Both the position numbers and the translations under genes were made by a program. The notes below the pieces were generated by a model, which was not told where the DNA came from, did no database searches, and saw only the letters and a list, made by a program, of their open reading frames with translations. Shown one piece after another: positions 3,911 through 56,060 of a stretch of 64,000 nt of DNA. Where the stretch lies: the IMG/VR virus record IMGVR_UViG_3300028805_003982; one strand, given 5' to 3'. Positions within the stretch are counted from its first letter, which is position 1. Each line of letters starts with the position of its first letter. The DNA comes from a virus (Duplodnaviria > Caudoviricetes).

Positions 3911-3966
3911 AAAGGTGCCGTATTTTCCTAGAGAAAGACGCTTTTCTTGTTTTTCGCTGTTATAGT
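3911..3966 (+). promoter_or_regulatory. Conserved 29-bp box promoter, copy A
   Basis: AAAGGTGCCGTATTTTCCTAGAGAAAGAC, then 19 nt, then GT-TATAGT. Three more copies have identical spacing. Confidence 0.85.
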
Positions 3967-4002
3967 ATAAAATAGCGTTTTAGGACGTGAGGCAGGATTA
4001 TC

Positions 4003-4036
4003 AGAGGATCTCGAAGTTTCGGGGTCCTTTTGTTTT
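4003..4036 (+). terminator. Intrinsic terminator about 30-60 nt after promoter copy A
   Basis: AGAGGATCTCGA-AGTT-TCGGGGTCCTTT hairpin followed by TGTTTT. Confidence 0.75.
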
Positions 4037-4081
4037 GCTTGAACAATTAGAGATTACACACAGAAAGGAAGGATATTGATC

Positions 4082-4138
4082 ATGTTACACCGGATAAGAG
4101 ACGGCCCAAGCGTGGCAGAACCAGTTAATTTTTACTGA
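4082..4138 (+). CDS. Putative 18-aa leader peptide MLHRIRDGPSVAEPVNFY
   Basis: Strong RBS (AGAAAGGAAGGA), ATG 4082 and TGA 4136-4138; followed by a terminator and then the 2083-aa gene. Confidence 0.5.
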   Translation: MLHRIRDGPSVAEPVNFY

Positions 4139-4152
4139 CACCCAATAAGACT

Positions 4153-4189
4153 AAAGAAGAAACGCCGGTCTAGAGGGTGTTTCTTTTTT
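4153..4189 (+). terminator. Leader terminator/attenuator upstream of the large surface protein
   Basis: AAAGAAGAAACGCC...GGTGTTTCTTTTTT hairpin with U-tract. Confidence 0.7.
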
Positions 4190-4233
4190 AATACCCGCAC
4201 AGCGGAAAATAAATCTAAAGGAGAAAAATCATT

Positions 4234-7200
4234 ATGAGTAAGAACTCAAAGAAAAAGTTTGTCAGCACGATGCTTGCTGCAAGCATGATCTTCTCCTCAA
4301 TACCTTTTACGGCATTGGCAGATGATGCTATCTCCGGCGGCGATAATGACGATGTTGTTATCGAGTCGCAGGTAGCAGAAGAGCCTGCCGTAACAGAACA
4401 GACTTTTGAGCCCGAGCCGATCCAGGCCGAGGAACCCGTTGAAGACAAGAACGTCGATAAGGTTCCCGAGGATGACGCGGAGCCTTCAGAAGTTGTTTCT
4501 GATGTTGAGGAAGAACCGCCCATCGAGGCAGAAGAAGGTAATGATGAGGAAACACCAGCTGCAACGGACACAGAAGTTGTAACAGAACCTACAGAGACTG
4601 CGGATAATCCGGCGGCTTCTGAGCCTGATACAACTAAGACTGCCGAAACTGAAGCAGCTTCTGAAAATGTTGTATTTGATCATTACTTTACAACTATTGA
4701 TACTTCACTTGTAAAGACAAAGGATCTTTTGGTTCAGACATCAGACCCTTCTGTATTCACATACAATACAAATGTTGTATCTAACTATGATGACGTATAT
4801 GTTATTTCTTGCGATTCTCTTAAAGAAGCAAGGTACGTGTTCTCTTATTATGTGGATAAGGTAAATAATATAACAGATATGTCGAATGTGTTTACTATCG
4901 CTTCAGAGTCGGATGATACTGCAGATCTGTCAGATCTTAATAATGGTACAGATGCAATTGCTGCTCTGAACGATATCAACGCAACAAATCACAGCGGTTA
5001 TATTGCTCTGATCGATACGGGTGCGAATGCAAACATCAATTATTCCGTAGTTGGTGATGATGTTTCTGATTCTAACGGTCATGGTACGGCAATGCTGAAC
5101 TATATCCGTGAAGAAAACCCTGCTGCAAGAGTGATCTCTATCAAGGTCTTTGATGGTAATAAGACAAATGCAGCAAACGTTTATGCAGGAATCAAACTTG
5201 CTATTGAATCTAAGGTTTCTATTATCAATCTGTCATTCGTAGGACCCGATGTAGAAAATAATGCCATCGTTAAGTCTGCTATTCAGGAAGCTTTGGATAA
5301 CAACATTAAAGTTGTTGGTGCGGCAGGTAATAACAATGGTAATGCCAAGAAGTATATTCCGGGTTGTGTTGAAGACGCTATCGTCGTAGGCGCAGTTAAC
5401 TCTGACGGCACAAAGTTCAGTTCTTCCAACTATAATGCTGATCTTTATGTTGTAGCTACTTCTTCGTCTGAAGCGGCAGCCAGATATACCGGTATGCTTT
5501 CAGGCAACTCTACAAACAACGACCGAGTATTTTCTACTCTGACATCTGGAGAAGTTCAGGATGCAGTAGCAGATACCGAGGGTGGCCGTGTTTTCTATGC
5601 TACATCTGACGATGATATTGATTGGAATAATCTTAAAGCCGGTGATGTAGTTTATCTGCCAGATTGTTATTATGTGATTAATGCGGTCAATGCGGACGGC
5701 ACTGTTGTTTTTATGCCTTATGCTCTTGACTATGACGAAGATAGTTTTGAATTGACCGCTCGTCACTATGGCGATCAGACAAAAACATCTTCCGCAAAGA
5801 CCATTACTCCCGGACAATCAGGTACTGATACAGGCACGGGGCATATCGGTTATAATGCGCATGGCTATGATAGTGTTACAAATCTTAAGTCGAACTCTTC
5901 CAGTAAGTACAAGCTGACAGACTGGTTCTCCAGTCTCGGTGCGGATTGTGAGTCCTTGTGGTTTGGGGATAGCGATTCTTCAAGACATGCTAAGTGCTTA
6001 TCTAATACAGATGTTAAGTATTCTGCTTCTTGGAAAACATACACAAACTCTAACGGTCTGCCTGAAATTAAGTTTACTGTCAGATTTACTGCCTCCAATG
6101 ATAATTTTAGTGCTAGAAATTGGGTTCACCATAAAATAACCTGGAAAGTTACCAAAGAACACTTAGGCAATAATGTTTATCAGTGGGATGCCTATATTTA
6201 TGATAACGGTACTCAAAAGTGGCACAAAGATTGGAGCGCGTACGACTCCACAAGTATCAATGATACGATCTGTTCGAGTATAAAAAGTTCCATCGCTTCA
6301 TACAAGGCTATCGGGGGTGATTGGACAGGTTATAAGTCTGTAAGCAGTGTATCAGTTCCGTCGGCAAAGACTATCGGTGATGCCACTACTACCAAGCCTG
6401 CTACCGGTACTTACCAGACTTATTATAAGTGCACCAATCCTATGCAGATCTATCGTGGTGTTGGGATTGTTAATATGCCTGGTCTTATGCTGTTCATGCA
6501 GAAGACGGCACCTTCATCAGATTATTCTGTATTAACAGACGATAGCACCTGCTATAGCTTTAAGGGTACTCAGTACAAGTTGTATACGGGATATGATTCA
6601 CATGAGGACAAGGCTACAGGAACCGTTCTTAAGACATTTACTCTTGATGCCCAGGGTCTCTCAGATGATCATTATACAGTTACGGAGTTCCCTTCCACCT
6701 TCTATATACAGGAGACTACAGCAGGTAAGGGGTTCTCGATCGATACACATGTCTATAAGGTGTATGTGCCCTCTGTTACCGGCTCTGTAGTTGTTACCGA
6801 TATGACTACTGAAGATCCTGATGACGTATGGCGTTATCCTTCTGACGGTACTTTAGTTCGTATGAAGTTTAAGGACTATCCGGTTACCGACCCTCTGGCT
6901 TTTGAGCTTAGAAAGATCAATGAGCAGGGGCAGATAACTGATGCTACGCTTTCAGATACAGAGTTTACTCTGGAATATTATGCACAGAACATCGCCTGGG
7001 ATAATAAGATTTCTGATTACGAGCCTACTGTCGTATATCATTTTACCCGCGCAGCTGGTGATAATTCACAGCTTAAACTTTCTGACTTTATGAATCTGCC
7101 GCCTGTCGGTGGTACAAACGGTGAGTATCTGCACGATCTTTATGAGGCAGATGTTTTGGATAATGAATATCAGTGGCCTCTCGGTACATATCTGATTTAC

Positions 7201-10200
7201 GAGAGCACACCGCCTGCCGGCTTTGCTTGTAATGAACAGATCCTTCGTATTAAGTTCTATCAGGTAAATAATGGCGATGACGTAGCTCGTATCATTCATA
7301 AGGTTGAGGACCGCGACGGAAATCAGATCGAAGGCGACGGTTATTTCTGGGATTACACGCTCGACCGTTCAGGTGACGAGTATAACCAGATCTTCATGAC
7401 TCTTGATGATAACGTTCTTACAGGACACTATCAGCTTACAAAGTCGATGAAGTCTGATGACGTTGTTAAGGATCTGGACGGCGTATTTACTTTTGAACTC
7501 GTTCAGGGTGATAAGCAGATCGCAACAGGTGTTTCTCAGGCAGACGGCAAGGTTCTTTGGACTTATACTCTTGAGGGCTTGAAGTCTGAGATCAACAGAG
7601 AAGCTCTTACGGGCACAACCGCGAACGTGCTTGAGCTCGCTGCTTATTGGGCAGACGGCTCTGCTATCGAGTATGAAGTAAGAGAAACTGTTCCTGCATA
7701 TCCTTATGGCGGAACTTCTAACATCTCTTATACTCAGAAAGCTCCTGAGGGCTGGACGTTAAGTGGTGACGGTACTTATTACTATCATACGTTTACCGTT
7801 ACAGAGGCTCAGACAGTGGATGCTCCTTACGAGGACACCATTGTTAATGACCTTGAGTCCTACTCTTTGAGCTTTGTAAAGAACATTCCCGCAGGCGACA
7901 GCTTTGACCGTACAAAGGTTGCTTTCCAGCTTATCTATACAGACACAAACACAGTTATCGCTAACGGTGTTGCAGATGCTACAGGTAACATTACTTGGAC
8001 AGCAGCTCACAATACAGGTTATGTTTGTGATACAAGTGTCGCAAGTCTGATCAAGGGTCTGCCCGGCGGTAACTACAAGGTCACAGAGACTTGGGATAAG
8101 ACTTATATCGCAACTCTTGACGATGATCAGGCAGAGCTTATCGAAGATAACTTGTCTGACGGTTGGGTAAAGGCTAACAGAAATGACGTTTACGAGTTTG
8201 GTTATACCTTTACTCTTGACGCGGACAAACAGATCTCCGGCGGCGAGGTCATCAATGACACTGTTGCTCAGTGGTTCAACATGACTAAGACGACTACGGT
8301 AGCAGGAGATGCTTCTACTGTTACGGTCGAACTTATCAATGCTGACGGCAATATCCTTGCAAGAGGTACTGCTGAAACAACAGCACAGCCCGGAACATTT
8401 AATGTTACTTGGGATTATGCAGGTAAGCACAAGGAAGTTAACGGTCTTGATACCATCGAGCTTCCTGCAGGCGATTATACTATAAGAGAATATCAGCCCG
8501 TTACTTACTACGATAACGGAAAGAACAATGTTCCTTATACCTATATGAAGCCTGAACTTAAGATCGGTGACGATACTCTTGGCGTTTTCGTTTCAGAGAA
8601 AGACGGTAAGGTAACATTTGAGTCTTCCGCATTCACTGTCGAGAACAATGAGACGGTAGTCCTCAACTCTACCGCTTCTAACACGCGTATCGAGGGTGAC
8701 CTTAGCATTATCAAGGTTGAAAGATCAGATGATACATCAACTGATAAGACTTTCAATCTGGAAATCTACTACAGAGGAAATGACTCTGAGGCGCATGACG
8801 TTGGCATGTTCCTTGAGAATTATCTCCTTGATACAATCACGATCACTACAAAGAACGGCGAAGGCACGGCAACACTTGGTAAGATCCCTGAGGGCTGGTA
8901 CGAAGTCCGTGAGATCGACAACGATGGTTGGACCGTAACTTGGGGCGGCGATGCCGCAACAAGTATCATTGGCGGTACTCCGACTAAGTTGTTCCATGTA
9001 GATTCAAAGGACAAGACAAATGCCGCACCCGTCGTAAATGATGGCGTAGAAGAGAACGGTACTCCTATCGACGGACTGCTTATCTATAACGATATCGCTC
9101 CTGAGATCGGTACAACCTTTACTGACAGTGCTACAAAGGATCATATCGCAGCTACAGACGTTGAAGCTAAACTGATCGATACTGTTGCTTATAAGAGAGT
9201 TCTTCCGGGCAGCTATAAGCTTTACGGTGTTCTTATGAACAAGGCAACAGGTGAACCTTTGGTAGATGCAGAAGGTGTTGAAGTTCGCGCTTCTACAGCA
9301 TTTACTATCCCTACGGTTGGCAATCTTGACAGATTTGGCAATCCCATGCCTGTAAGCGATACGGTTGACGTTGAGTTTATCCTTGATACAACTATGGTCA
9401 ATGGTCTCAAGGCAGTTGCCTTTGAGGAACTTTACGCAGTAGATGTTCACGGTGATGTAACAGGTCAGCCTGTTGCTGAACATGAAGACATTGATGATGT
9501 TGATCAGACAATGGATATCGGTGATGGTCAGACAACGCTTCTTGACGATGCAACCGGTACTCATACAACAGCTCTGGCAGAGAAGGTTTCTCTTACAGAC
9601 TATGTTGAGTTCAATCATCTGCTTCCTGGCAAGTCTTACACCATGACAGGTACTCTGATGGATAAGGCAACAGGAGAGCCTCTGAAGGATGCCGAGGGCA
9701 ACGAGATCACTGCTTCACAGCAGTTCTTGGCTGATCCTGATGATCCTAACCTTGAGAACGTCATCGTTGAGGACGGTTCATTCTCAGGTATGGTTAAGGT
9801 TACTTTCGAGATCGATACAACGATCCTTGTTAAGAAGACAACACACATCGTTGCCTTTGAGACTTGTACCGACGATGAGACCGGCGTAGCCGTAATCATC
9901 CACGCAGATCTTGAAGATGATGATCAGACAGTACGCGTTCCTACGGCGATCACAAAGGCTGAGTATCCTGACGGAGCAAAGACTGCCGTAAGAGTTCCTG
10001 ATCTCGTTCTTATCGACACCGTAACTTATACGGGTCTTGAACCCGGTCAGAGATACCGTATCGTTGCAACACTTATGGTTAAGGAAACGGGCGAGCCGCT
10101 TATGAACAACGGCGAGATCGTAAAGGTAACCGATGAGTTCGTTGCACCTGCATCTGACGGTGTTGAACCCGTTGAGATCACGTTTGACGCTACAGGCCTT

Positions 10201-10485
10201 AAGGTTACTGATCATGTCGTAGTCTTTGAGGAAGTTTATAACCTCTTTACAGGTAAGCAGGTAGATCCTGATACCGGAGATGAGACTGAGGTTGAGGAAC
10301 TTGTTCTTGTTGCAGAGCACAAGGATATCAACGATCAGGACCAGACAGTGGGCTTCATGGCTAAGACAGGCGACAGTCTGCACACACTTGCTTATATCAT
10401 CGGAACAGTAGTTTCAGTAGCAGGTCTTGCAGGACTGACAGTCTTTGTCATCAAGAGAAAGAAGAAGGGCACTGAAGAAGCCTGA
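4234..10485 (+). CDS. Sortase-anchored surface protein: subtilase (S8)-like domain, Ig-like stalk and three T-Q ester (VaFE) repeats
   Basis: Signal peptide and acidic linker; IALIDTG, HGTAM, AAGNN and SSSEAAARYTG; VAFE/VVFE with HEDIDDVDQT, HADLEDDDQT and HKDINDQDQT; C-terminal MAKTG, TM helix and KRKKK. Confidence 0.85.
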   Translation: MSKNSKKKFVSTMLAASMIFSSIPFTALADDAISGGDNDDVVIESQVAEEPAVTEQTFEPEPIQAEEPVEDKNVDKVPEDDAEPSEVVSDVEEEPPIEAEEGNDEETPAATDTEVVTEPTETADNPAASEPDTTKTAETEAASENVVFDHYFTTIDTSLVKTKDLLVQTSDPSVFTYNTNVVSNYDDVYVISCDSLKEARYVFSYYVDKVNNITDMSNVFTIASESDDTADLSDLNNGTDAIAALNDINATNHSGYIALIDTGANANINYSVVGDDVSDSNGHGTAMLNYIREENPAARVISIKVFDGNKTNAANVYAGIKLAIESKVSIINLSFVGPDVENNAIVKSAIQEALDNNIKVVGAAGNNNGNAKKYIPGCVEDAIVVGAVNSDGTKFSSSNYNADLYVVATSSSEAAARYTGMLSGNSTNNDRVFSTLTSGEVQDAVADTEGGRVFYATSDDDIDWNNLKAGDVVYLPDCYYVINAVNADGTVVFMPYALDYDEDSFELTARHYGDQTKTSSAKTITPGQSGTDTGTGHIGYNAHGYDSVTNLKSNSSSKYKLTDWFSSLGADCESLWFGDSDSSRHAKCLSNTDVKYSASWKTYTNSNGLPEIKFTVRFTASNDNFSARNWVHHKITWKVTKEHLGNNVYQWDAYIYDNGTQKWHKDWSAYDSTSINDTICSSIKSSIASYKAIGGDWTGYKSVSSVSVPSAKTIGDATTTKPATGTYQTYYKCTNPMQIYRGVGIVNMPGLMLFMQKTAPSSDYSVLTDDSTCYSFKGTQYKLYTGYDSHEDKATGTVLKTFTLDAQGLSDDHYTVTEFPSTFYIQETTAGKGFSIDTHVYKVYVPSVTGSVVVTDMTTEDPDDVWRYPSDGTLVRMKFKDYPVTDPLAFELRKINEQGQITDATLSDTEFTLEYYAQNIAWDNKISDYEPTVVYHFTRAAGDNSQLKLSDFMNLPPVGGTNGEYLHDLYEADVLDNEYQWPLGTYLIYESTPPAGFACNEQILRIKFYQVNNGDDVARIIHKVEDRDGNQIEGDGYFWDYTLDRSGDEYNQIFMTLDDNVLTGHYQLTKSMKSDDVVKDLDGVFTFELVQGDKQIATGVSQADGKVLWTYTLEGLKSEINREALTGTTANVLELAAYWADGSAIEYEVRETVPAYPYGGTSNISYTQKAPEGWTLSGDGTYYYHTFTVTEAQTVDAPYEDTIVNDLESYSLSFVKNIPAGDSFDRTKVAFQLIYTDTNTVIANGVADATGNITWTAAHNTGYVCDTSVASLIKGLPGGNYKVTETWDKTYIATLDDDQAELIEDNLSDGWVKANRNDVYEFGYTFTLDADKQISGGEVINDTVAQWFNMTKTTTVAGDASTVTVELINADGNILARGTAETTAQPGTFNVTWDYAGKHKEVNGLDTIELPAGDYTIREYQPVTYYDNGKNNVPYTYMKPELKIGDDTLGVFVSEKDGKVTFESSAFTVENNETVVLNSTASNTRIEGDLSIIKVERSDDTSTDKTFNLEIYYRGNDSEAHDVGMFLENYLLDTITITTKNGEGTATLGKIPEGWYEVREIDNDGWTVTWGGDAATSIIGGTPTKLFHVDSKDKTNAAPVVNDGVEENGTPIDGLLIYNDIAPEIGTTFTDSATKDHIAATDVEAKLIDTVAYKRVLPGSYKLYGVLMNKATGEPLVDAEGVEVRASTAFTIPTVGNLDRFGNPMPVSDTVDVEFILDTTMVNGLKAVAFEELYAVDVHGDVTGQPVAEHEDIDDVDQTMDIGDGQTTLLDDATGTHTTALAEKVSLTDYVEFNHLLPGKSYTMTGTLMDKATGEPLKDAEGNEITASQQFLADPDDPNLENVIVEDGSFSGMVKVTFEIDTTILVKKTTHIVAFETCTDDETGVAVIIHADLEDDDQTVRVPTAITKAEYPDGAKTAVRVPDLVLIDTVTYTGLEPGQRYRIVATLMVKETGEPLMNNGEIVKVTDEFVAPASDGVEPVEITFDATGLKVTDHVVVFEEVYNLFTGKQVDPDTGDETEVEELVLVAEHKDINDQDQTVGFMAKTGDSLHTLAYIIGTVVSVAGLAGLTVFVIKRKKKGTEEA

Positions 10486-10518
10486 TTAGTTCTCTTTTTA
10501 ACTCGATAATCAGTTGAG

Positions 10519-10577
10519 TTTGCTCTTTAAAGCGTCTGCGGGCTGTAAAAGGCTCGCAGGCGTCATTAGAGAGTAAA
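10519..10577 (+). other. Long intergenic stem-loop without U-tract
   Basis: TTTGCTCTTTAA-AGCGTCTGCGGGC...GCTCGCAGGCGT-CA-TTAGAGAGTAAA, with G-U-compatible pairing. Confidence 0.65.
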
Positions 10578-10602
10578 ACGGCTAAATCATCAGAAAGGAA
10601 GC

Positions 10603-11523
10603 ATGATGCGTAAAAAAGAATCAAAGATAAAAAGGTATATCAGTAATGTACTTATTGTATTGGCCGGGATATGTCTTGCTGTTGGCGCATACTTTAGCAT
10701 AAGGGGTTTGATCACGGACATCAAAGACTATAACGAAGTGGAAGCTGACAGAGAGGAACTTACTGACACATTCCATAAGACTGTTCCGCAGCCAAACGCT
10801 CAGGGCGGAGACCTGGATCTTCCGTACGATGAGTCAGAGGATCTTAAGCTTAAGTACGATACCATGAAGGCCATAAATCCTGATTATGCCTGCTGGCTCA
10901 AGATAAACGGGACCGGGCAGGAATACCCGGTTTGCGTTAACCTGGAAGGCTCTTCATATTATTACTTAAATCACAGTTTTAAAAGGAAGCCCTTGGGCGC
11001 CGGTTGTCTCTTTATCGATCCGGGATCTTCGGTCGATTGCGATAATCTTATAATATACGGACATCACATGAGAAACGGTACGATGTTCGGCAGCTTGGGT
11101 AAGTTCTTGAAAGAGGAATGGACCCGTGACGGCAATAACAGCCTTATCGAAGTATTTACGGAGACAGAGCACCGTTATTATGAAGTTGTTTGTGTATTAA
11201 CGGCAAGTGTTTATAAAATGCCTTTCAGCATTACCGGGTATACAGATCTTTCTGATTATAATGATAATGTTGCGTTTGGCAACCTGCTCCGTAAGCATTC
11301 ACAGATCAACATGGATTGGAAAATAGGTGACAACGGTTTTGAGCCTAATCCCAATCTGTTTACTCCGGGTGTGTATAAAGACCGGTTCTTAACACTTATT
11401 ACTTGTGAATATACACATCGTAACGGCAGGGAAGTAGTCATAGCAAGGGAGCTTTACAGACCGATGTGGACGGCGGAAGAAATGATGCAGTCTGCCGCGC
11501 AATCCGAGGCGATTTCTGAATAA
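10603..11523 (+). CDS. srtB: Class B sortase
   Basis: N-terminal TM helix, INPDY..WL.I.GT..YPV, IYGHHMRNGTMFG, TLITC and GREVV. Confidence 0.92.
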   Translation: MMRKKESKIKRYISNVLIVLAGICLAVGAYFSIRGLITDIKDYNEVEADREELTDTFHKTVPQPNAQGGDLDLPYDESEDLKLKYDTMKAINPDYACWLKINGTGQEYPVCVNLEGSSYYYLNHSFKRKPLGAGCLFIDPGSSVDCDNLIIYGHHMRNGTMFGSLGKFLKEEWTRDGNNSLIEVFTETEHRYYEVVCVLTASVYKMPFSITGYTDLSDYNDNVAFGNLLRKHSQINMDWKIGDNGFEPNPNLFTPGVYKDRFLTLITCEYTHRNGREVVIARELYRPMWTAEEMMQSAAQSEAISE

Positions 11524-11577
11524 AGGAGCCGTGTTTTCCTAATAAAAGATAACAAGGACGAAAAATGACGTTATAAT
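11522..11577 (+). promoter_or_regulatory. Conserved 29-bp box promoter, copy B (drives the large ncRNA)
   Basis: AAAGGAGCCGTGTTTTCCTAATAAAAGAT, then 19 nt, then GT-TATAAT. Confidence 0.85.
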
Positions 11578-11602
11578 AGTTGTACTCGATTGAACTTTGA
11601 AA

Positions 11603-12218
11603 ACCTAATAATCATCAGGATAGCAGTGCATACACGTTATCTCGGTGTAGAGGGGCTTATCACCCTGCCGAGACGCTGCCGGATCAGAAGAGAAGCTTTT
11701 AAGGATACTTTCCAGTTTCTCAAGCGTGCTGAACGTGAGCTTAGCACCTCGTCATAGCAATGGCGTTGGCAGGCGGCGGTATGTACTGTGTGATGTTGGC
11801 GTGAACTGCTGGTGGCCGATGTAATAGACGCCAGCTCGAAAGGCTGGAAGAATCCGAATGCCCTAAGGCCGGTAACCTTAGGCACCTTTCGGAAATACCA
11901 AACAAGTCGGTTTGCCGTGAGACTGCGGAAACGCAGAGTATAACATCAGCAGGCTTCGTAAGTAGCCCAAGGCAGCAAGAACTTCAGATAATGATATTAC
12001 ATTTGCGAAATGTGATAGGAATTTTTCTGAATGATATGGGTGAAAGCTGGGGGTATCAATCCCTTACAGGCTCGGGCGATATCAGCCTGCGCAAGAAGGA
12101 CGGTGTAGCTGACCGTTTCTCAGACTTGCGTACCTGTCGGCGCGATAAACCGTAGCACAGATAGTATGCTGAACAAAAGGCAAGCGTGTGTGTACTGTTA
12201 TCCTGATGGTTGTCGGGT
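11603..12218 (+). ncRNA. Large structured ncRNA, most likely ROOL (rumen-originating ornate large) RNA
   Basis: No credible ORF. 11603-11638 pairs with 12183-12218 as a ~36-bp closing stem whose deviations are nearly all G-U. Many internal hairpins (CTCGG..CCGAG, GTGCT..AGCAC, CCAGC..GCTGG, CCTAAGG..CCTTAGG, CTGCG-GAAA-CGCAG, CAGGCT..AGCCTG, CGCAAG..CTTGCG). The size and the segments GTAGCCCAA and ATATGGGTGAAAG..GGTATCAATCC resemble ROOL as I recall it. Confidence 0.8.
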
Positions 12219-12226
12219 GGTATAAT
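12218..12226 (+). promoter_or_regulatory. Extended -10 element TGGTATAAT at the 3' end of the ROOL closing stem
   Basis: Perfect TGnTATAAT consensus. Confidence 0.45.
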
Positions 12227-12324
12227 ATACTGAAAACGAAAGACGGCCAAGGCTCTGAAAAACCAAAATAATTATGAATAGCCTTAAAGCGAATTGCGTG
12301 CACAAGGTCGTTTTAGTTGATATT

Positions 12325-12366
12325 ACAGACTCCGAAAGATCTTCTTTTGGGGTCTGTTTTTTATTT
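12325..12366 (+). terminator. Intrinsic terminator after the large ncRNA
   Basis: ACAGACTCCGAAAGA-TCT-TCTTTTGGGGTCTGT followed by TTTTTATTT. Confidence 0.85.
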
Positions 12367-12403
12367 GGGGTTAATTACGGCCACGGAAAGGAAGGGGATA
12401 GGA

Positions 12404-13072
12404 GTGAGCAGCGATTTTGCGAGAATAAGAGCAGAGGTGCTTCAAGACGTTGAGCTGAATCCGGATTATTATGAACTGTTGTCGGATCGGGCAGATATGA
12501 TAGAGTTCATAGATAAGACAGATGGGATATTTGATTATCATTATGTTATTACAGATACGGATGTAATAACCCCGGATTGGCTGAAAAGCAAGACTTTGGT
12601 TACTCCGGATGCCCGGGAGTTATTTAGAACAGATCTGTCGAACCTCTTTGAACTGGTGGATAAATACATCCCTAAAGAAGCATATCAGACATTGCAGGAA
12701 TTGATATTTATCACTAATTCGGATGCGGATTATGAATATCTCTATAATGATAGCGAACTTTATATCAGGAAATTACTGGAAGAACATGCCTTGCCGGATG
12801 AGGAACAATTGGGTTTGTCTTGGACCGCAGAAGGGGTAGTTATCATTAATCTGGGGAAGATCGAGACTTCAGTCAAAGAGATGACAGAGGAAGGGGCTTT
12901 CGGTTCTACTCTGGAACGGGTTGTGTTGGATACCATTGCACACGAGTTCAGACATCTTCAGCAAACTAATCCGTATGTATCACAAGAGATCAAAGACACG
13001 TTCCTCGATGACATAGAGATAGATGCAGAGGTGTTTGCAAGAAATATCAACTATGGGGAGTTGGGATTATAG
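12404..13072 (+). CDS. HExxH zincin-like metallopeptidase-domain protein
   Basis: DTIAHEFRHLQQ...IEIDAEVFA. Start reassigned to GTG 12404 because the ORF-track start lies inside the terminator. Confidence 0.65.
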   Translation: MSSDFARIRAEVLQDVELNPDYYELLSDRADMIEFIDKTDGIFDYHYVITDTDVITPDWLKSKTLVTPDARELFRTDLSNLFELVDKYIPKEAYQTLQELIFITNSDADYEYLYNDSELYIRKLLEEHALPDEEQLGLSWTAEGVVIINLGKIETSVKEMTEEGAFGSTLERVVLDTIAHEFRHLQQTNPYVSQEIKDTFLDDIEIDAEVFARNINYGELGL

Positions 13073-13101
13073 AAACATCAAGAGAAAGCTGAGGTGTAAA
13101 T

Positions 13102-13344
13102 ATGAATCAGTTTGGACTTTATTTTATTGATACCAAGGAGTTTGTCAGCTGTGGCAGTTATGCACAGGCGTTTAAGATGTATCTGGACGTTCTATATAAG
13201 GCTATCGATGAAAGTTTCCTGTTGCCGGATAACGTGGGAATAGCGTATTTCGTTCCTGAGCGTAACAGAATAGAACAAGTTGATATGCTTGGACGTGTGA
13301 CAAGATCCGTTCTCATATCCAAGGAAGAGATCACGTTCAGTTGA
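13102..13344 (+). CDS. Hypothetical protein
   Basis: GAGGTG RBS; 80-aa ORF. Confidence 0.65.
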   Translation: MNQFGLYFIDTKEFVSCGSYAQAFKMYLDVLYKAIDESFLLPDNVGIAYFVPERNRIEQVDMLGRVTRSVLISKEEITFS

Positions 13345-13434
13345 AGGCTTTTGGCAATATGCTACAAAAACTGATTAAATGTCTTGGGATTTTTGTGCTA
13401 TAATACCTACGAGAAATACTATAGGTATAACAAG

Positions 13435-13662
13435 ATGAGTCCTGAAGATTATTTAGAGAAGTTTAGAATGCTTGCCAATCAAAAGGCTTTTATATGTCCG
13501 TCCACAGATCCGCTGTTGGCGGAGTCTTTGTGTGAAGAATGGAATGAAACCGTTATGCAGGCAACAAAGGCGGGGCTGGCTCATAGCGAGATACGCAAGA
13601 TATGGGAAGAAACGTCCTTTATAAAAGGTTCTCTTTTAGGGATTGACCGGAAATCCATGTAA
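13435..13662 (+). CDS. Small protein, paralogue of 25842-26051
   Basis: Shares WNET-x3-A-x-K-x-GL-x7-IWE...SFIK with 25842-26051; start at ATG 13435. Confidence 0.7.
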   Translation: MSPEDYLEKFRMLANQKAFICPSTDPLLAESLCEEWNETVMQATKAGLAHSEIRKIWEETSFIKGSLLGIDRKSM

Positions 13663-13718
13663 AAAGGTTCCGTATTTTCCTAGAGATAGACACATTATTA
13701 ATTTTCTGCTGTTATATT
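13663..13718 (+). promoter_or_regulatory. Conserved 29-bp box promoter, copy C
   Basis: AAAGGTTCCGTATTTTCCTAGAGATAGAC, then 19 nt, then GT-TATATT. Confidence 0.85.
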
Positions 13719-13724
13719 ATAAAG

Positions 13725-13823
13725 TGTTACTATGCTACATGATTCCCAACGAAGCAGATGTAGATGTAGTGGAATACTCCTTTTTAATTGATGGTCGGTG
13801 CCGGAAACGGCATCGATCTTTTT
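13725..13823 (+). ncRNA. Putative ~100-nt sRNA or attenuated leader
   Basis: Lies between promoter copy C and a strong terminator (GGTCGGTGCCG-GAAA-CGGCATCGATC-TTTTT, 13793-13823). Contains a 5' stem GCTACAT/ATGTAGT and an unpaired CTCCTTTTT. Confidence 0.5.
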
Positions 13824-13841
13824 ATGTTGAAGGGACAACGT

Positions 13842-14489
13842 ATGGATTGGTATGAGTTTGACAGTTTGGAAAGACAAAAAGAGTATTTTCCAGAGTTGCA
13901 GGCTGCTGTTGATTCCGAATACGGGCAGCACCTTTGCTATCCTTTAAGGGAAAATATCTATAATGCCTTTAAATTAACACCTGTTAGCAGTATCCGATGT
14001 GTGATACTTGGACAAGACCCGTATCACGGGCCGGGGCAGGCGACCGGATTGGCTTTTTCGGTTCCGCATAGTTTCCCGTTGCCGCCGTCTCTTCGTAACA
14101 TCTATAAAGAGATAGAAGCGGATACAGGTAAAAAGACGGTGAATCCTGACGGGTGCCTTGAACCCTGGGCCTCTCAGGGTGTATTGCTCTTGAATTCATC
14201 TTTGTCGGTCAGGGCACACGAACCCGGGTCTCATGCAGATCTGGGGTGGGGGACCTATACCGATAATTTCATTAAGATGCTGGGCGCCTTGGACCAAGAT
14301 ATCGTCTATATGTTATGGGGTAAGTTCGCAAGGAGTAAAAAGCAGCTTATAACAAACAAAAGGCAGTTGATCCTGGAAGCGCCTCACCCGTCTCTGTTTT
14401 CGGCAAACCGGGGATTTTTCGGATGCGGGCATTTCAGTAAATGTAATGAATATCTTGAATCAAAAGGTCAGAACAAAATAATCTGGTAA
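13842..14489 (+). CDS. ung: Uracil-DNA glycosylase (family 1)
   Basis: VILGQDPYHGPGQATGLAFS, PPSLRNIYKE, GVLLLNSSLSV, HPSLFSANRGFFG; start at ATG 13842. Confidence 0.95.
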   Translation: MDWYEFDSLERQKEYFPELQAAVDSEYGQHLCYPLRENIYNAFKLTPVSSIRCVILGQDPYHGPGQATGLAFSVPHSFPLPPSLRNIYKEIEADTGKKTVNPDGCLEPWASQGVLLLNSSLSVRAHEPGSHADLGWGTYTDNFIKMLGALDQDIVYMLWGKFARSKKQLITNKRQLILEAPHPSLFSANRGFFGCGHFSKCNEYLESKGQNKIIW

Positions 14490-14501
14490 AGGAGATTTTT
14501 A

Positions 14502-14693
14502 ATGTATCAGTACGAGGTCGCTAAACAAAAGGGAGGCAAGAACTATTTTTGTTATGAGGTCGGAGAGCAGCTGCCGATTAAAGGAACTTTCGGCGATAAG
14601 AAAAAAGTAATGAAGATTGCAGCCTCACTGAACGGCGTTTCGTACGCGGATTTTGTGAAAAACAGAAAAAACGGTTTTGATATAGAAAAATAA
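14502..14693 (+). CDS. Small hypothetical protein
   Basis: AAGGAG RBS; 63 aa. Confidence 0.65.
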   Translation: MYQYEVAKQKGGKNYFCYEVGEQLPIKGTFGDKKKVMKIAASLNGVSYADFVKNRKNGFDIEK

Positions 14694-14701
14694 CGGGTGT
14701 A

Positions 14702-14727
14702 ATACCTTTGGAGTAACCAAAAGGTAT
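14702..14727. promoter_or_regulatory. Inverted repeat (candidate operator) upstream of pilus cluster 1
   Basis: ATACCTTTGG-AGTAA-CCAAAAGGTAT, a near-perfect palindrome without a U-tract. Confidence 0.4.
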
Positions 14728-14944
14728 ACCATTTGTAATCTAATTGTGATATAAATAGTGTGTCGGGGAAGTATAAGTTAGACGAGATGTTTTGATGTAG
14801 TTTTTGGTCGTAATTGTAATTAGTGTACGCTTTGTTGTCAGATTTTGTTTTCCTTGATAATGATAAGTTACTTATAGGTTTTCCCCGGCACGTTTATTTA
14901 TATAACCGCTTATGCGGGTATTAAATCTTAGTGGAGGTTAGATT

Positions 14945-16225
14945 ATGCACAAATTCAAGAACTTTCTCGGCATACTGTGTGCTGTTGCATTGATGGCAGG
15001 CTCAGTATTCAGCGTATCTGCAGCCGAGATAGGAGAGGGCACCGCTGAGACCAATGATACGGAGATCCTGATCCCCAAGAGCATCAATGTCACAAATCCG
15101 GAGGACATTGAGGTTTGGACACCTGCGATCACGTATTCATATGAGATCAGAGGTGTTGAGAGCAGATTGGGTTCTACGGTAACTGATACGGAAGGCCGCA
15201 GGGTATCCGTAAGGCCTGGACCTGATGGCGGTGCAGTGTTGCCCACGGGCGTTGTTGAGTTTGACTCACAGAAGGTCATGGCAAACACTGCTGCCAACGA
15301 AGTTGAGGATAATCTTGTGGTTAATGTCGATCTCAGCAAGTTTGAACAGCCAGGCATTTATCGTTATGAGATCAAGGACGTAACAGACTTGGGTCTTCTC
15401 CGGGCAGCAGGTATCGAAAGAGCCGAAGATTATGATCTTATCAGATATCTTGATGTTTATATCATCAGGGATCAGGATACGGGAAATCTTAAGGTTTCCG
15501 GCTACGCTTTGACTAACGGATATGTACTCGATCCCGAGCATACGGGGTACCCGGTAATATCCATTGAAGCATGGGAGACCGACAAATCTTCAGGTTATGT
15601 ACCACGGTCAGAGATCTTTGACGACTATACGTATGATATCGACGGCACCGCACAGATGACCGATACGTATGATACGTATAACGTTAAGATTACTAAGCAG
15701 GTTACAGGCGATATGGGTGACACGTCTCACGAGTTCCCCTTCGTAGTTGATGTAACCGGACAGGATGAGATCAAGTACAGCCACGGTAAGTGCGCAGCAG
15801 ATCAGGCAGATCCTGACATTACAGAAGATACTAATACAGATTCCATCAGCACAACGATGAAGAACACCGAGTATTACGTACTTCAGGGATTGTCCCCTCT
15901 GGCCACGGTTGCTGTTGAAGAGACCAACGACACTTATGACGGTTATACAGTAACGGTAACTGACAAGGACGGAACTGAAGTAGTCCCCGCAACAGACGCT
16001 GTGGCCTTTAACGGCACGGTTAAAGTTGATGCCTTCCAGGTATCAGACTACGAAACTCCGGATGTTGAGGCTTCTGCAAATGCCAAAGACGAGCTTACAT
16101 ACGACAATCATCTGGACAACGTATCTCCTACAGGCGTTATCCTTGCGTCAATGCCTTTCGTAGGCTTGGCAGGTGTTGGCGGCACGATGCTCGTTTTGGG
16201 CAAGAGAAAGAAAAAGGAAGACTAA
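14945..16225 (+). CDS. Backbone pilin (Spy0128/FCT-like), module 1
   Basis: Signal peptide; F-x2-PGIYRY; ITKQVTGDMGD...FPF, VEETND and YDN (K/E/N isopeptide-like set); VSPTGV, TM helix and KRKKK. Confidence 0.8.
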   Translation: MHKFKNFLGILCAVALMAGSVFSVSAAEIGEGTAETNDTEILIPKSINVTNPEDIEVWTPAITYSYEIRGVESRLGSTVTDTEGRRVSVRPGPDGGAVLPTGVVEFDSQKVMANTAANEVEDNLVVNVDLSKFEQPGIYRYEIKDVTDLGLLRAAGIERAEDYDLIRYLDVYIIRDQDTGNLKVSGYALTNGYVLDPEHTGYPVISIEAWETDKSSGYVPRSEIFDDYTYDIDGTAQMTDTYDTYNVKITKQVTGDMGDTSHEFPFVVDVTGQDEIKYSHGKCAADQADPDITEDTNTDSISTTMKNTEYYVLQGLSPLATVAVEETNDTYDGYTVTVTDKDGTEVVPATDAVAFNGTVKVDAFQVSDYETPDVEASANAKDELTYDNHLDNVSPTGVILASMPFVGLAGVGGTMLVLGKRKKKED

Positions 16226-16228
16226 GTT

Positions 16229-16798: not shown

Positions 16799-16819
16799 GG
16801 TTAGAGAAAGGGAACAAAC

Positions 16820-40680: not shown

Positions 40681-40778
40681 GTGTTGATTTATATTAAAAA
40701 GTATTGCATTTTACCGCATTTTTCCTAAAACGCAGTTATACTAATGGTATAACCAAATAAATGAAAGGAGCGCTCTAC

Positions 40779-41075
40779 ATGGCACGAAGCAAAGTGAAAA
40801 TATCTGAAGCGCGGAGTTTCCGTATCCGAAAAGACCTTTGTGACAGGCTTGATGATTATTCGGATGTCAGTATGATCCCTAAAACAGCCTTGGTCGAAAA
40901 GGCTCTGGAAGAATATCTCGATAAAGTAGCCCCGGTAGAAGAGGGTTATGAGAACTCTTATGTCAGCCCGATCGTTGCAGAACAGGAGCATTATCAGGCA
41001 CCGGCAGCAATAAGGCGTCCCGCAAGTGTTTCTACGGGAAATCTGCAGGCGTTAATGAACAATTCACAGCATTAG
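40779..41075 (+). CDS. Ribbon-helix-helix transcriptional regulator
   Basis: RSFRIRKDLCDRLDDYS....IPKTALVEKALEEYL; AAGGAG RBS; monocistronic between terminators. Confidence 0.75.
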   Translation: MARSKVKISEARSFRIRKDLCDRLDDYSDVSMIPKTALVEKALEEYLDKVAPVEEGYENSYVSPIVAEQEHYQAPAAIRRPASVSTGNLQALMNNSQH

Positions 41076-41097
41076 TATTTCTTATTATTTGTTTAAT

Positions 41098-42272: not shown

Positions 42273-42275
42273 AGC

Positions 42276-43604: not shown

Positions 43605-43608
43605 TTGA

Positions 43609-44124: not shown

Positions 44125-44831
44125 AGACGGCAACCAAGGTTCTGGAAACCATCATCGAGATAGTATGCTTTTGTGCCATCTCGTGCGCGATCTATTTTCT
44201 TCTTGAAAACTATAGGATCGAACGTCAGGCAGAAAATTATGCTTCAGAGTATAAGGAACTGCTTACGGAAGATGAAAACGGAAGAATGTCTTTGGAGGAG
44301 CTTCAAAAGCTCAATCCTGACGCAGCCGCATGGATCGAGATATACGATACTACTCTGGATTATCCGATCATGAAGGGGAGACCGGAGTATACATATCTTA
44401 ATCGCGATTTCCTGGGGAATAACTGTATAACCGGGTCACTTTATATCCGTAACATAGATGACCGATATTTTACGGATGAATATGAGATCGTGTACGGACA
44501 TCATATGGCAAACGGGGGGATGCTCGGTTGCCTTGACTATTTTGCCGATCCTGCTTACTTACAAGCACATAATAAAGGTCAACTTATAACTGAAAAAGAA
44601 ACTTACGATGTCGAAGTGTTGACTCTGATAATTACGGATTCATACAACGACACTTTATATACAAATAACGAGCGCGAGTATTTCTATAAGGCTATGGAAA
44701 ATGCTACGGTGCTCACGGGGAGCCTGCCGGAAAGGGATAAAGAAGGCACTTTGCTTTTGTTTTCCACCTGTTCGGCTTCCGGAAATACAGATAGGACAAT
44801 ATTGATAACGCGACTTACGAAGCAGATGTAA
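44121..44831 (+). CDS. srtB: Class B sortase (no C-terminal extension)
   Basis: LNPDAAAWI, YGHHMANGGMLG, FSTC and DRTIL. Confidence 0.9.
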   Translation: MKTATKVLETIIEIVCFCAISCAIYFLLENYRIERQAENYASEYKELLTEDENGRMSLEELQKLNPDAAAWIEIYDTTLDYPIMKGRPEYTYLNRDFLGNNCITGSLYIRNIDDRYFTDEYEIVYGHHMANGGMLGCLDYFADPAYLQAHNKGQLITEKETYDVEVLTLIITDSYNDTLYTNNEREYFYKAMENATVLTGSLPERDKEGTLLLFSTCSASGNTDRTILITRLTKQM

Positions 44832-44843
44832 GGAGACAGTAAA

Positions 44844-54509: not shown

Positions 54510-54535
54510 GTCTGCGTTTACGATATTTCCTTTCT

Positions 54536-54572
54536 GGGCGGGCGGGTTCTTCGGGATCTGCCCGTTTCTTTT
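54536..54572 (+). terminator. Intrinsic terminator
   Basis: GGGCGGGCGGGTTC-TTCG-GGATCTGCCCGTTT-CTTTT. Confidence 0.85.
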
Positions 54573-54661
54573 GACTATTGAAAGACGGGTCTAAAACACA
54601 CCAGCCCCGTTATACCTTATGGCATAAGGATTTTATTTGTAACAGAAAGGGAAGCTTTGTT

Positions 54662-55858
54662 ATGATGGAAGATTTTAATATAATGGAGTATCTCGACAAA
54701 ACTGGTGTTGCATATAAGGAAAAGGGGTACGATCGCGTAGTTTTGGAAGCGCACGATTCATTAACGATAACCCCGTCCCGTAATCTGTTTAATTGGTTTT
54801 CCAGGGGCATCGGAGGATACGGTGTTTGGGATTTTATCAGACTCGTTGAATATGAAGGACAAAACGTCAGCAAAAGAGATATTATGCAGCGTCTTATTGA
54901 TGTGTTTGGCGAGGACAGGTGCGGTGTTACTGATTGGGATGAGGGGGATCGCAAGAGGCCGAAGCCCGTATTGCATGAGGCTAAATATCAGGTACAGTCG
55001 CAGCCTCAGAATACCATAGAATTTGCTTTGCCGGAGAAAAACAGGAGCGTTGACCTGATCCGTAAATATCTTTGTGAAGAAAGAGGCATTTCTGAAAAGG
55101 TGTTTAACGAATTTGTTTCAAGGGGCCTGTTATATGAATCAAACATCAAGATAACCAAGAATCGTGACGGCACGGACAGGTCGAAGCCTTTTTATGCCCA
55201 TAATGCCGTATTTGTCAGAATAGACCCCAGGGACGGGAACATCAAGGCGGCAACTGTTAAAGGTTCTTATGTGGACCCGACTACCCATAAAAGATATAGT
55301 AGGGATGTGCCCGGATCTAATAAGTTTGACTGTCTATTCTATTTTCAGGGCAAAAATGTTAAAGAGCCCGATCACGTTATTCTCTTTGAGGCCGAGATAG
55401 ATCTTATGAGCTACTTGTCACTTCAGGAAGAAAAAGGCGTCAGCATGGATAATTTTGTATGTGTTTCTTTAGGCGGCATCAGCGCTGATATGACGATCCG
55501 TGCTAGTCTTCAGCACCTTTTTGACCGGTTCCCGACAATAAAAAAGGTAATGATATCTTTTGATAATGATTACGACAAAGAATTAATGGGCAAAATAAAT
55601 GTCGGCAGGGAAGCAATGGTGTCTTTACACCAGAATCTGATACAGGCAGGGAAAAAGCCCGGATGGATCTTTGTTAGGGACGGGGACGACGGAACTCGTT
55701 GTAAGGATTGGAATGACTGTCTTCTGGAATACCGCAAGGGGAATTGGACTTTTCTTGGTCAGGGCAAGAAACAGGACAATGAGCCGGATGGCAATGGCAA
55801 GACAACCGATCCTAAAAAAGATACTCCTGATGACGATGCAGGACCCGGGGGTCAATAA
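54662..55858 (+). CDS. DUF3991/Toprim primase-like protein of conjugative elements
   Basis: HDSLTI...FNWFSRGIGG, YL..ERGIS, FEAEIDLMSY, SLGG, FDND and KDWND; start at ATG 54662. Confidence 0.8.
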   Translation: MMEDFNIMEYLDKTGVAYKEKGYDRVVLEAHDSLTITPSRNLFNWFSRGIGGYGVWDFIRLVEYEGQNVSKRDIMQRLIDVFGEDRCGVTDWDEGDRKRPKPVLHEAKYQVQSQPQNTIEFALPEKNRSVDLIRKYLCEERGISEKVFNEFVSRGLLYESNIKITKNRDGTDRSKPFYAHNAVFVRIDPRDGNIKAATVKGSYVDPTTHKRYSRDVPGSNKFDCLFYFQGKNVKEPDHVILFEAEIDLMSYLSLQEEKGVSMDNFVCVSLGGISADMTIRASLQHLFDRFPTIKKVMISFDNDYDKELMGKINVGREAMVSLHQNLIQAGKKPGWIFVRDGDDGTRCKDWNDCLLEYRKGNWTFLGQGKKQDNEPDGNGKTTDPKKDTPDDDAGPGGQ

Positions 55859-55895
55859 CCGCGCGATATTCATTACTTTTTGTGAAAGTTTTGTA

Positions 55896-55951
55896 AAAGG
55901 TGCCGAGTTTTCCTAACAAAAGACGCGTTTTTTCTAAACCGCCGTTACAAT
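55896..55951 (+). promoter_or_regulatory. Conserved 29-bp box promoter, copy D (head of the transfer region)
   Basis: AAAGGTGCCGAGTTTTCCTAACAAAAGAC, then 19 nt, then GT-TACAAT. Confidence 0.85.
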
Positions 55952-55957
55952 ATAAAA

Positions 55958-56060
55958 TAGGATGAGTACATTTGATATGTACCAAACGAATATGACCGCG
56001 ATATGCGGTAGTTAAGTCTCCGGGTTTCTTTGGGCAGCACCTCTCCGGAGACTTCTTTTT
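55958..56060 (+). ncRNA. Putative ~100-nt structured leader or sRNA
   Basis: Hairpins GTACAT..ATGTAC and ACCGC..GCGGT, then terminator AAGTCTCCGGG...TCCGGAGACTT-CTTTTT (56014-56060). Confidence 0.5.

What the first reader, a model, noticed from the sequence alone, without database searches (positions are those of the whole stretch)
3911..56060. A 29-bp box promoter regulon in which every copy precedes a non-coding, terminated RNA, linking ROOL to conjugation
Seen: four copies (3911, 11522, 13663, 55896) of AAAGGWKCCGWRTTTTCCTARHRAWAGAY. Each is followed by exactly 19 unconserved nt and then GT plus TATAGT, TATAAT, TATATT or TACAAT, with no canonical -35. Each is then followed by non-coding sequence and an intrinsic terminator before any CDS: ~60 nt (A), the ROOL-like RNA (B), ~100 nt (C), ~100 nt (D). 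The downstream genes are the VaFE adhesin, a HExxH protein, ung and the transfer operon. Established: boxes of about this size abutting the -35 are how master activators such as AcaCD and SetCD switch on conjugative elements. Inference: an element-encoded activator or sigma factor co-induces ROOL, three sRNAs or attenuators and the mating genes. That would give a functional context for an RNA class of unknown function.
Basis: partly seen in the sequence, partly recalled or inferred. Interest (0 to 1): 0.9.

Follow-up and report, generated by a model that had tools for sequence, protein, structure and literature searches.

The report
Shared promoter box heading four operons
Four transcription units of a large, uncultured, rumen-type conjugative element (a surface adhesin, the ROOL RNA, a uracil-DNA glycosylase and the DNA-transfer genes) begin with the same 29-base box at a fixed distance from an ordinary -10 element, so one unidentified factor probably controls them, but nothing shows that ROOL works in conjugation.

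Summary
The box occurs four times (3911, 11522, 13663, 55896, all on +), with none expected by chance. The four copies score 52-56 bits against 7.5 for the next best site. Twenty of 29 box columns are invariant, against 1 of 19 spacer columns and 6 of 8 in GTTAYANT. All copies are intergenic and sense-oriented, and each is followed by a non-coding leader and an intrinsic terminator before the first gene. Copy B drives a full-length ROOL RNA (Rfam, 241 bits).

New evidence comes from a syntenic relative at about 48% protein identity. Its adhesin and transfer-operon promoters carry a different box, identical between themselves, in exactly the same register (GTGCCG 46 nt before the -10 hexamer). 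That pattern suggests a site co-evolving with an element-specific factor.

The ROOL link is not conserved. ROOL is absent between sortase and ung in the two relatives that reach ung, and the ung promoter of the closest relative has no box. The -10 is the general TGT-TATAAT type of this element, so I rank an activator-like factor above a new sigma factor. No regulator was identified and no expression data could be obtained. The scan has already seen ROOL in a conjugative element and an element-wide promoter box on other DNA.

This is a sound promoter class of moderate interest.

The parts
3911..3939 (+). Box A (AAAGGTGCCGTATTTTCCTAGAGAAAGAC)
3959..3966 (+). Extended -10 of promoter A (GTTATAGT, preceded by T, so TGT-TATAGT); predicted start about 3973
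4003..4030 (+). Leader A, first intrinsic terminator (12-bp stem plus UUUGUUUU)
4082..4138 (+). 18-codon leader ORF MLHRIRDGPSVAEPVNFY with a strong RBS; the RDGP motif is kept in the relative's leader ORF (L025:856-882, MVLCRDGP)
4152..4190 (+). Leader A, second terminator hairpin followed by a U-run
4234..11523 (+). Unit A genes: 2083-aa sortase-anchored adhesin (T-Q ester domains, MAKTG signal) and a class B-like sortase
11522..11550 (+). Box B; overlaps the sortase stop codon by 2 nt
11570..11577 (+). -10 of promoter B (GTTATAAT); predicted start about 11584
11617..12201 (+). ROOL RNA, full-length Rfam match
12325..12357 (+). Terminator closing the ROOL unit; the HExxH gene (from about 12398) and two small genes follow, and I saw no promoter of their own
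13663..13691 (+). Box C; starts directly after the stop codon of the 92-aa ORF
13711..13718 (+). -10 of promoter C (GTTATATT, preceded by T); predicted start about 13725
13793..13818 (+). Leader C terminator (11-bp stem, GAAA loop, U-run), about 15 nt before the ung RBS
13842..14489 (+). Uracil-DNA glycosylase superfamily gene (unit C)
55896..55924 (+). Box D
55944..55951 (+). -10 of promoter D (GTTACAAT); predicted start about 55958
56014..56054 (+). Leader D terminator hairpin with GCACCUC in its loop, then CUUUUU; two small hairpins precede it
56125..64000 (+). Unit D: DNA-transfer genes including the MobA/VirD2-type relaxase (58955-59938) and the start of the coupling protein (63515-); internal terminator-like site at 63458-63490

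Best explanation
The four sites are promoters of one class. Each combines the element's usual primary-sigma-type extended -10 (G at -14, TAYAAT) with no -35 hexamer, and adds a 29-bp recognition box spanning about -62 to -34. A dedicated, probably element-encoded DNA-binding factor reads the box. The most likely factor is an activator that touches RNA polymerase from just upstream of the -35 position. The class heads four co-oriented units: adhesin plus sortase; ROOL plus an HExxH gene cluster; ung; and the relaxase/coupling-protein operon. This would be a small mating-related regulon into which ROOL has been recruited in this one element. Each unit has a second checkpoint, a leader with an intrinsic terminator, so full expression of the genes also needs read-through. 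Shown: the motif, its geometry, its positions, the terminators, the ROOL identity and the conserved register in relatives. Inferred: promoter activity, the existence, nature and sign of the factor, and co-expression.
For: Bipartite conservation with a free spacer of fixed length: box 20/29, spacer 1/19, -10 octamer 6/8. Copy B shares 23/29 of the box with A but only 2/19 of the spacer, which indicates selection on the box and argues against recent duplication. All four copies are intergenic and sense-oriented. The predicted start of B lies just before the ROOL terminal helix. In the syntenic relative contig, the orthologous adhesin and transfer promoters share an identical 25-nt box, TTTGTGCCGTTTTTGCACACGGGGA, with GTGCCG at the same 46 nt from the -10 hexamer as in the window. 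A third relative has TTGCCAAAATTGCACTTAGGGA in the same register. So the box is homologous across elements, identical between the two copies within the closest relative and different between elements, as expected for a site co-evolving with its binding protein. The -10 type (T)GT-TATAAT is shared by non-box promoters of the window and of the relatives, which favours an accessory factor over a new sigma. The box ends where a -35 would begin, and its TTTTCC-TA-RNRAAA pseudo-dyad is centred near -43.5 on my numbering, which is class II activator geometry. Co-regulating a sortase-anchored adhesin with DNA-processing genes makes biological sense for Gram-positive mating.
Against: There are no transcript data. 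No regulator was found in the 64-kb window, whose only recognisable DNA-binding protein is an Arc-like RHH. The rest of the 234,910-bp contig could not be read. Master control of Gram-positive conjugative elements is more often by repressors. Only three related elements were available, and none was found in IMG/VR, in GTDB species genomes or in JGI metagenomes. Membership varies between elements: ung has a box here but not in the relative, and ROOL is absent there.
Confidence: 0.55

Rival explanations
1. Promoter-loaded antitermination, working like phage lambda Q at pR'. The extended -10 fires constitutively and makes short terminated RNAs. A factor recruited through the DNA box modifies RNA polymerase so that it reads through the leader terminators and the internal terminators. 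On this view ROOL is made constitutively, and only the genes behind it are induced.
For: All 4 box promoters have a terminator before the first gene, whereas the five non-box promoters seen in the window (-10 octamers at 711, 1658, 26587, 40735 and 41152) run straight into an RBS. The leaders are unrelated in sequence, so a shared RNA signal is unlikely but a shared DNA signal is present. A, C and D carry a second -10-like hexamer (TATAAA/TAAAAT) right after the -10, which could pause sigma. An internal terminator-like site sits before the coupling-protein gene. Processive antitermination is known in Gram-positive conjugative elements (conAn PMC8191782; canT PMC11658703).
Against: The box lies at -62 to -34. 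As far as I recall, known Q-binding elements sit close to the core promoter and the paused polymerase, so this is far from their position. Pfam found no Q-like or ConAn1-like protein. In the relative, the box-bearing adhesin promoter has no canonical terminator, while box-less promoters (ung; L025 -10 at about 17673) do have leader terminators. The box-terminator link is therefore not strict.
Confidence: 0.15
2. The box is an operator for the element's master repressor. The four strong extended -10 promoters are held off until a mating or induction signal arrives.
For: Repression is the usual logic in Gram-positive conjugative elements (background knowledge: ImmR of ICEBs1, Rco of pLS20, PrgX of pCF10). 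The core CCGNNTTTT(T)CCTA recurs inside the spacer of the promoter of the Arc-like RHH gene (40714-40727), a typical autorepression position. The spacer of promoter D is 15/19 identical to that spacer.
Against: An operator entirely upstream of the core promoter is a poor roadblock. The promoters lack a -35, which usually signals a need for activation. The relative's RHH promoter keeps a window-like CCGCGGATTCCTTA and does not carry the relative's own box type, so box and RHH promoter do not co-vary.
Confidence: 0.12
3. An alternative, element-encoded sigma factor reads the class, with the 3' end of the box (AWAGAY) as its -35-like element and GTTAYA as its -10.
For: Unchecked notes from other windows of the same contig report several sigma-70-family genes and several promoter classes. 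Relatives carry tandem sigma genes. GTTATA is recalled as the -10 of TcdR-group sigma factors (from memory, untested).
Against: The same GT-TAYAAT -10 occurs at promoters without the box. The AWAGAY to -10 hexamer spacing is 21 nt (19 to GTTAYA), longer than the usual 16-18. A 29-bp conserved block is far larger than a -35 element.
Confidence: 0.1
4. The copies are passively duplicated promoter cassettes spread by recombination, for example with the ROOL module, and have no dedicated regulator.
For: A, C and D share extra similarity in the spacer (11/19) and in the first transcribed bases. Boxes B and C flank a 2.1-kb module that two relatives lack.
Against: B keeps the box with an unrelated spacer. 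Conservation is blocky instead of uniform. An independent box type sits in the same register in relatives.
Confidence: 0.06

Closest known systems
Master-activator regulons of conjugative elements (SetCD of SXT/R391, AcaCD of IncA/C)
   Same: Several co-oriented transfer-related operons of one mobile element share a roughly 20-30-bp box next to or replacing the -35. The promoters lack a canonical -35.
   Different: Those are FlhDC-family activators in Proteobacteria. No such gene was found here, the box sequence is unrelated, the host is Firmicute-like, there are only four copies, one drives a large ncRNA, and each copy is followed by a leader terminator.
Phage late-promoter activator sites (Mu Mor/C sites centred near -43.5; P2/P4 Ogr/Delta sites near -55)
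   Same: About four promoters per element have a good -10, no -35 and a conserved upstream site at a fixed distance. The pseudo-dyad here is centred near -43.5.
   Different: The comparison rests on recalled geometry only. No Mor, C or Ogr homologue was detected, and the 5' half of the box (AAAGGnnCCG) has no counterpart.
Lambda Q / pR' with its short terminated 6S RNA
   Same: A conserved DNA element at the promoter is followed by a short terminated transcript ahead of the regulated genes, with a -10-like repeat in the initially transcribed region of A, C and D.
   Different: The box is much further upstream than known Q-binding elements. There are four promoters where the phage has one, and no Q homologue was found.
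conAn (pLS20 family) and canT (Tn916) processive antitermination
   Same: A Gram-positive conjugation operon preceded and interrupted by terminators; the leader of the transfer operon is conserved among relatives.
   Different: Those signals are cis-acting RNAs, with ConAn1 protein in the first case. Here the shared element is DNA upstream of the start, the leaders differ from each other, and no Rfam family matches them.
ROOL RNA on the Lactobacillus salivarius megaplasmid (Cousin et al. 2017, PMC5643018)
   Same: ROOL is carried by a very large extrachromosomal or mobile element and not by a phage, with its own strong promoter.
   Different: There the promoter was only roughly mapped and no link to transfer genes was made. 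Here the promoter type is shared with adhesin and transfer operons.

Membership tests
ROOL RNA (Rfam RF03087) | Covariance-model score above the gathering threshold over the full model | tested here: met
   241.4 bits against 99.1, model positions 1-574 of 574, at 11617-12201 +
Primary-sigma extended -10 promoter (TGnTATAAT) | TG at -15/-14 and a TATAAT-like hexamer | tested here: inconclusive
   G-14 is present in 4/4, T-15 only in A and C, and the hexamers match 4-6 of 6 positions. The same type occurs at non-box promoters. Activity is untested.
SetCD/AcaCD-type master-activator regulon | FlhD/FlhC-like activator genes on the element | tested here: not met
   No such Pfam hit among 51 proteins of the window. 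The rest of the contig could not be read.
SetCD/AcaCD-type master-activator regulon | A shared box at a fixed position in -35-less promoters of several transfer-related operons | tested here: met
   Four copies at a fixed 19-nt spacing. A relative has its own box at two orthologous promoters.
Lambda Q-type antitermination | A Q protein gene, and a binding element close to the core promoter and the pause site | tested here: not met
   No Q-like Pfam or PHROG hit. The box lies at -62 to -34.
Lambda Q-type antitermination | A promoter-proximal intrinsic terminator giving a short RNA | tested here: met
   Terminators at 4003-4030, 13793-13818 and 56014-56054
conAn / canT processive antitermination | A cis-acting antiterminator RNA (and ConAn1 protein) at the head of the conjugation operon | not testable with these tools
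   ConAn1 orthologues share only 13-33% identity (PMC8191782). No model was available. The leaders match no Rfam family.
UP element (alpha-CTD site) | An A/T-rich tract from -59 to -38 without G/C-specific positions | tested here: not met
   Invariant GG..CCG and CC inside the box

The most novel reading that the evidence does not exclude
ROOL is a true member of a mating regulon. It would be switched on together with the adhesin and the DNA-processing genes by a box-binding factor, which would put the ROOL nanocage to work during conjugative transfer or establishment and give this RNA class its first functional context. In a bolder variant, the box would load a new kind of promoter-recruited antiterminator.
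Probability: 0.12. Interest if true: 0.85.

Novelty: new variant of a known kind. Interest (0 to 1): 0.45.

Why it matters
ROOL is a widespread, cage-forming RNA with no known function. Knowing which promoter class drives it, and which genes share that class, gives a concrete and testable handle: find the box-binding factor and ask when it is active. The finding also documents how a family of very large, uncultured rumen elements organises transcription. Their promoters pair an extended -10 with class-specific upstream boxes, and they use leader terminators widely. The finding further shows concerted evolution of a promoter box across elements. The weight is limited. The ROOL link is seen in one element only, the host is uncultured, and nothing here measures expression.

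Tried and rejected
1. Whole-genome scan: no genome is held for this window, and the DNA of its own 234,910-bp contig could not be fetched.
2. Box pattern in IMG/VR: six chance hits without the 3' half or a -10.
3. Box plus GTTA in 185,579 species genomes: twelve hits, none with the window's box. Ten Bacteroidota hits share one protein-coding motif that I take to be gyrA (identity not tested), and two are isolated chance hits.
4. Box in JGI metagenomes: 0 hits. The relative-type box in JGI metagenomes gave ten chance hits without a -10.
5. megablast and blastn of the ROOL/ung region against plasmids and phages: no match.
7. PHROG and Pfam searches for a regulator: only an Arc-like RHH was found.
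8. RHH as the box binder: its promoter holds the box core, but the relative's RHH promoter does not follow the relative's box type. I kept this only as a weak lead.
9. Rfam at relaxed thresholds on the leaders: only sub-threshold terminator look-alikes.
10. RNAalifold on three transfer-operon leaders: the alignment was poor and there were too few sequences.
11. L020:18475, where 16 nt identical to the start of box A turned out to be the RBS region of an IS200-type tnpA: treated as coincidence.
12. Records behind the relative loci could not be searched as genomes.
Full report
THE OBSERVATION

The 29-mer AAAGGWKCCGWRTTTTCCTARHRAWAGAY occurs exactly four times, at 3911, 11522, 13663 and 55896, all on the + strand. 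Allowing three mismatches adds no match, and shuffled sequence gives none. Each copy is followed by exactly 19 nt and then GTTATAGT, GTTATAAT, GTTATATT or GTTACAAT.

Column by column, 20 of 29 box positions are invariant, against 1 of 19 spacer positions and 6 of 8 positions of the -10 octamer. A weight matrix gives the four copies 52-56 bits and nothing else in the window more than 7.5 bits, so there are no weak extra copies. All four copies lie in the 8.9% of the window that is intergenic, on the coding strand.

Copy B shares 23/29 of the box with copy A but only 2/19 of the spacer. The box is therefore under selection and is not simply a recent duplicate. A, C and D are closer to one another: 11/19 in the spacer, plus a shared ATAAARTRG just after the -10.

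WHAT FOLLOWS EACH COPY

- **A.** A roughly 65-nt leader ends at a strong terminator (4003-4030). Next come an 18-codon ORF with a good RBS (4082-4138, MLHRIRDGPS...) and a second terminator (about 4152-4190). The genes that follow are a 2083-aa adhesin with three T-Q ester domains and a MAKTG sorting signal, and a sortase.
- **B.** A full-length ROOL RNA (RF03087, 241 bits, 11617-12201). The predicted start at about 11584 lies roughly 20 nt before its closing helix. A terminator at 12325-12357 closes the unit. Behind it come an HExxH gene and two small genes, for which I saw no promoter of their own.
- **C.** A roughly 100-nt leader with a long hairpin and a terminator (13793-13818), about 15 nt before the RBS of a uracil-DNA glycosylase gene.
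- **D.** A roughly 100-nt leader with two small hairpins and a terminator (56014-56054). The operon that follows contains a MobA/VirD2 relaxase and, after a further terminator-like site at 63458-63490, the coupling protein.

The leaders match no Rfam family. The five non-box promoters I could recognise in the window (-10 octamers at 711, 1658, 26587, 40735 and 41152) have the order terminator, promoter, RBS, with no leader terminator. Within this window, then, the leader terminator is a trait of the box class.

THE ELEMENT

All genes are co-oriented. Besides the transfer genes, the window encodes several pilin, signal-peptidase and sortase sets, giant surface proteins, toxin-like cassettes and many orphan proteins.

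The window belongs to a 234,910-bp metagenomic contig. Relatives come from rumen-type assemblies, and more distant relatives reach about 515 kb and carry tandem sigma-70 genes. Distant sortase homologues are named Clostridia (Christensenellales, Oscillibacter, Ruminococcus), so a Clostridia-like host is likely but unproven.

Unchecked notes from other windows of the same contig report tRNA arrays, several sigma genes and other promoter classes that also pair an extended -10 with an upstream box. Those notes list only these four copies of the present box over about 107 kb.

COMPARATIVE EVIDENCE

The closest relative is Logan contig SRR28201449_9047, with about 48% protein identity. I rebuilt positions 1-48,594 from loci L025, L041 and L019. 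It is syntenic: adhesin, sortase and ung on one side, and giant protein, DUF3991/Toprim, promoter and transfer operon on the other.

Its adhesin promoter and its transfer-operon promoter share an identical 25-nt box, TTTGTGCCGTTTTTGCACACGGGGA. GTGCCG lies 46 nt before the -10 hexamer, exactly as in the window's copies A and D. A third relative (L023/L024) has TTGCCAAAATTGCACTTAGGGA in the same register before its transfer operon.

The upstream element is therefore homologous across elements. Its 5' core (GTGCCGT.TTT) is kept and its 3' half has changed. In the closest relative, where two copies are available, the copies are identical. This is the pattern expected of a binding site that co-evolves with an element-specific protein, and it is the strongest argument for function.

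The relative has only these two copies in 48.6 kb. Its ung promoter has no box, although it also has a leader with a terminator. ROOL is absent between sortase and ung in that relative and in L043. A third sortase contig, L044, ends before any ung gene and has an unmatched non-coding stretch after the sortase. No ROOL was found in any fetched relative DNA.

The conserved core of the regulon is thus adhesin plus transfer genes. ROOL and ung are additions in this element.

MECHANISM

The (T)GT-TATAAT motif is the general -10 of this element family, and non-box promoters of the window and of the relatives use it too. The polymerase therefore probably uses a primary-type sigma, and the box supplies class specificity.

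The box spans about -62 to -34 and ends where a -35 hexamer would start. Its 3' half is a pseudo-dyad, TTTTCC-TA-RNRAAA, centred near -43.5. That is the geometry of class II activators such as Mu Mor and C, a comparison I make from memory.

I rank the readings as follows:

| Reading | Confidence |
|---|---|
| Activator-type factor | 0.55 |
| Promoter-loaded antiterminator | 0.15 |
| Upstream repressor operator | 0.12 |
| Dedicated sigma factor | 0.10 |
| Passive duplicated cassettes | 0.06 |

The antiterminator reading would explain why all four box promoters are followed by terminators with unrelated leaders. It is weakened by the box lying far upstream and by the relatives. There, a box promoter lacks a canonical terminator while box-less promoters have one.

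The only recognisable DNA-binding protein in the window is an Arc-like RHH (40761-41075). Its promoter holds the box core with one extra T (CCGCATTTTTCCTA, 40714-40727). The orthologous promoter in the relative does not follow the relative's box type, so this is only a weak lead.

COMPARISON WITH WHAT IS KNOWN

ROOL on a very large non-phage element is not new: the Lactobacillus salivarius megaplasmid RNA is ROOL (PMC5643018, noted in PMC5737381). This scan has also reported ROOL inside an integrated conjugative element of another genome.

Shared promoter boxes on conjugative elements are known in kind (SetCD, AcaCD), and the scan reported an element-wide box on another megaplasmid. Terminator and antiterminator control of Gram-positive conjugation operons is known as well (PMC8191782, PMC11658703).

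What is new here is this particular box, its concerted change between related elements, its regular pairing with leader terminators, and the fact that one copy drives ROOL.

VERDICT

The ROOL-conjugation link rests on one element, without expression data and without an identified regulator. Interest is moderate.

Noticed in passing
window 4082-4138; L025:856-882: The leader ORF ahead of the giant adhesin keeps an RDGP motif in both elements (MLHRIRDGPS... here, MVLCRDGP-stop in the relative), although the surrounding leaders differ. This fits a conserved regulatory, possibly ribosome-arresting, leader peptide.
   Followed up: partly
window 56014-56054; L019:11262-11296; L023:5712-5749: The terminator hairpin of the transfer-operon leader carries GCACCUC in its loop in all three related elements, while the stem sequences differ. 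The motif resembles the anti-Shine-Dalgarno end of 16S rRNA.
   Followed up: partly
window 40714-40727 (promoter of the Arc-like RHH gene 40761-41075): The box core recurs with one extra T (CCGCATTTTTCCTA) inside the spacer of the RHH gene's promoter. The spacer of promoter D is 15/19 identical to that spacer. The relative's RHH promoter has CCGCGGATTCCTTA.
   Followed up: partly
window 11522-13662 versus L025:9207-9386 and L043:2512-2674: The whole ROOL plus HExxH module (about 2.1 kb), bounded by boxes B and C, is missing in the two relatives where sortase is followed directly by a promoter and ung. ROOL here looks like an inserted cargo cassette.
   Followed up: yes
L044:2640-2839: In another relative, the sortase gene is followed by about 200 nt of non-coding sequence that looks structured and ends in a terminator. 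It matches no Rfam family.
   Followed up: partly
L020:18475-18503: Sixteen bases identical to the start of box A (AAAGGTGCCGTATTTT) form the RBS region of an IS200-type tnpA gene in a distant relative. This is probably coincidence but statistically unexpected.
   Followed up: partly
window 663-718 and 1610-1665: Two near-identical promoter modules (TGTATTGTTATAGCGGTCTTGAACAAWTGGGTAAAAGTTAATAGCGGTGTTATAAT) stand ahead of genes in the cassette region that includes the zeta-toxin-like gene. They form a separate promoter class.
   Followed up: no
window 63458-63490: A terminator-like hairpin with a U-run lies about 25 nt before the coupling-protein gene, inside the transfer operon, with no room for a promoter.
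   Followed up: no
L026, L029 (about 12,850-15,080): More distant relatives, on contigs up to about 515 kb, carry two adjacent sigma-70-family genes a few genes downstream of the homologous sortase, next to an ADP-ribosylglycohydrolase gene.
   Followed up: no
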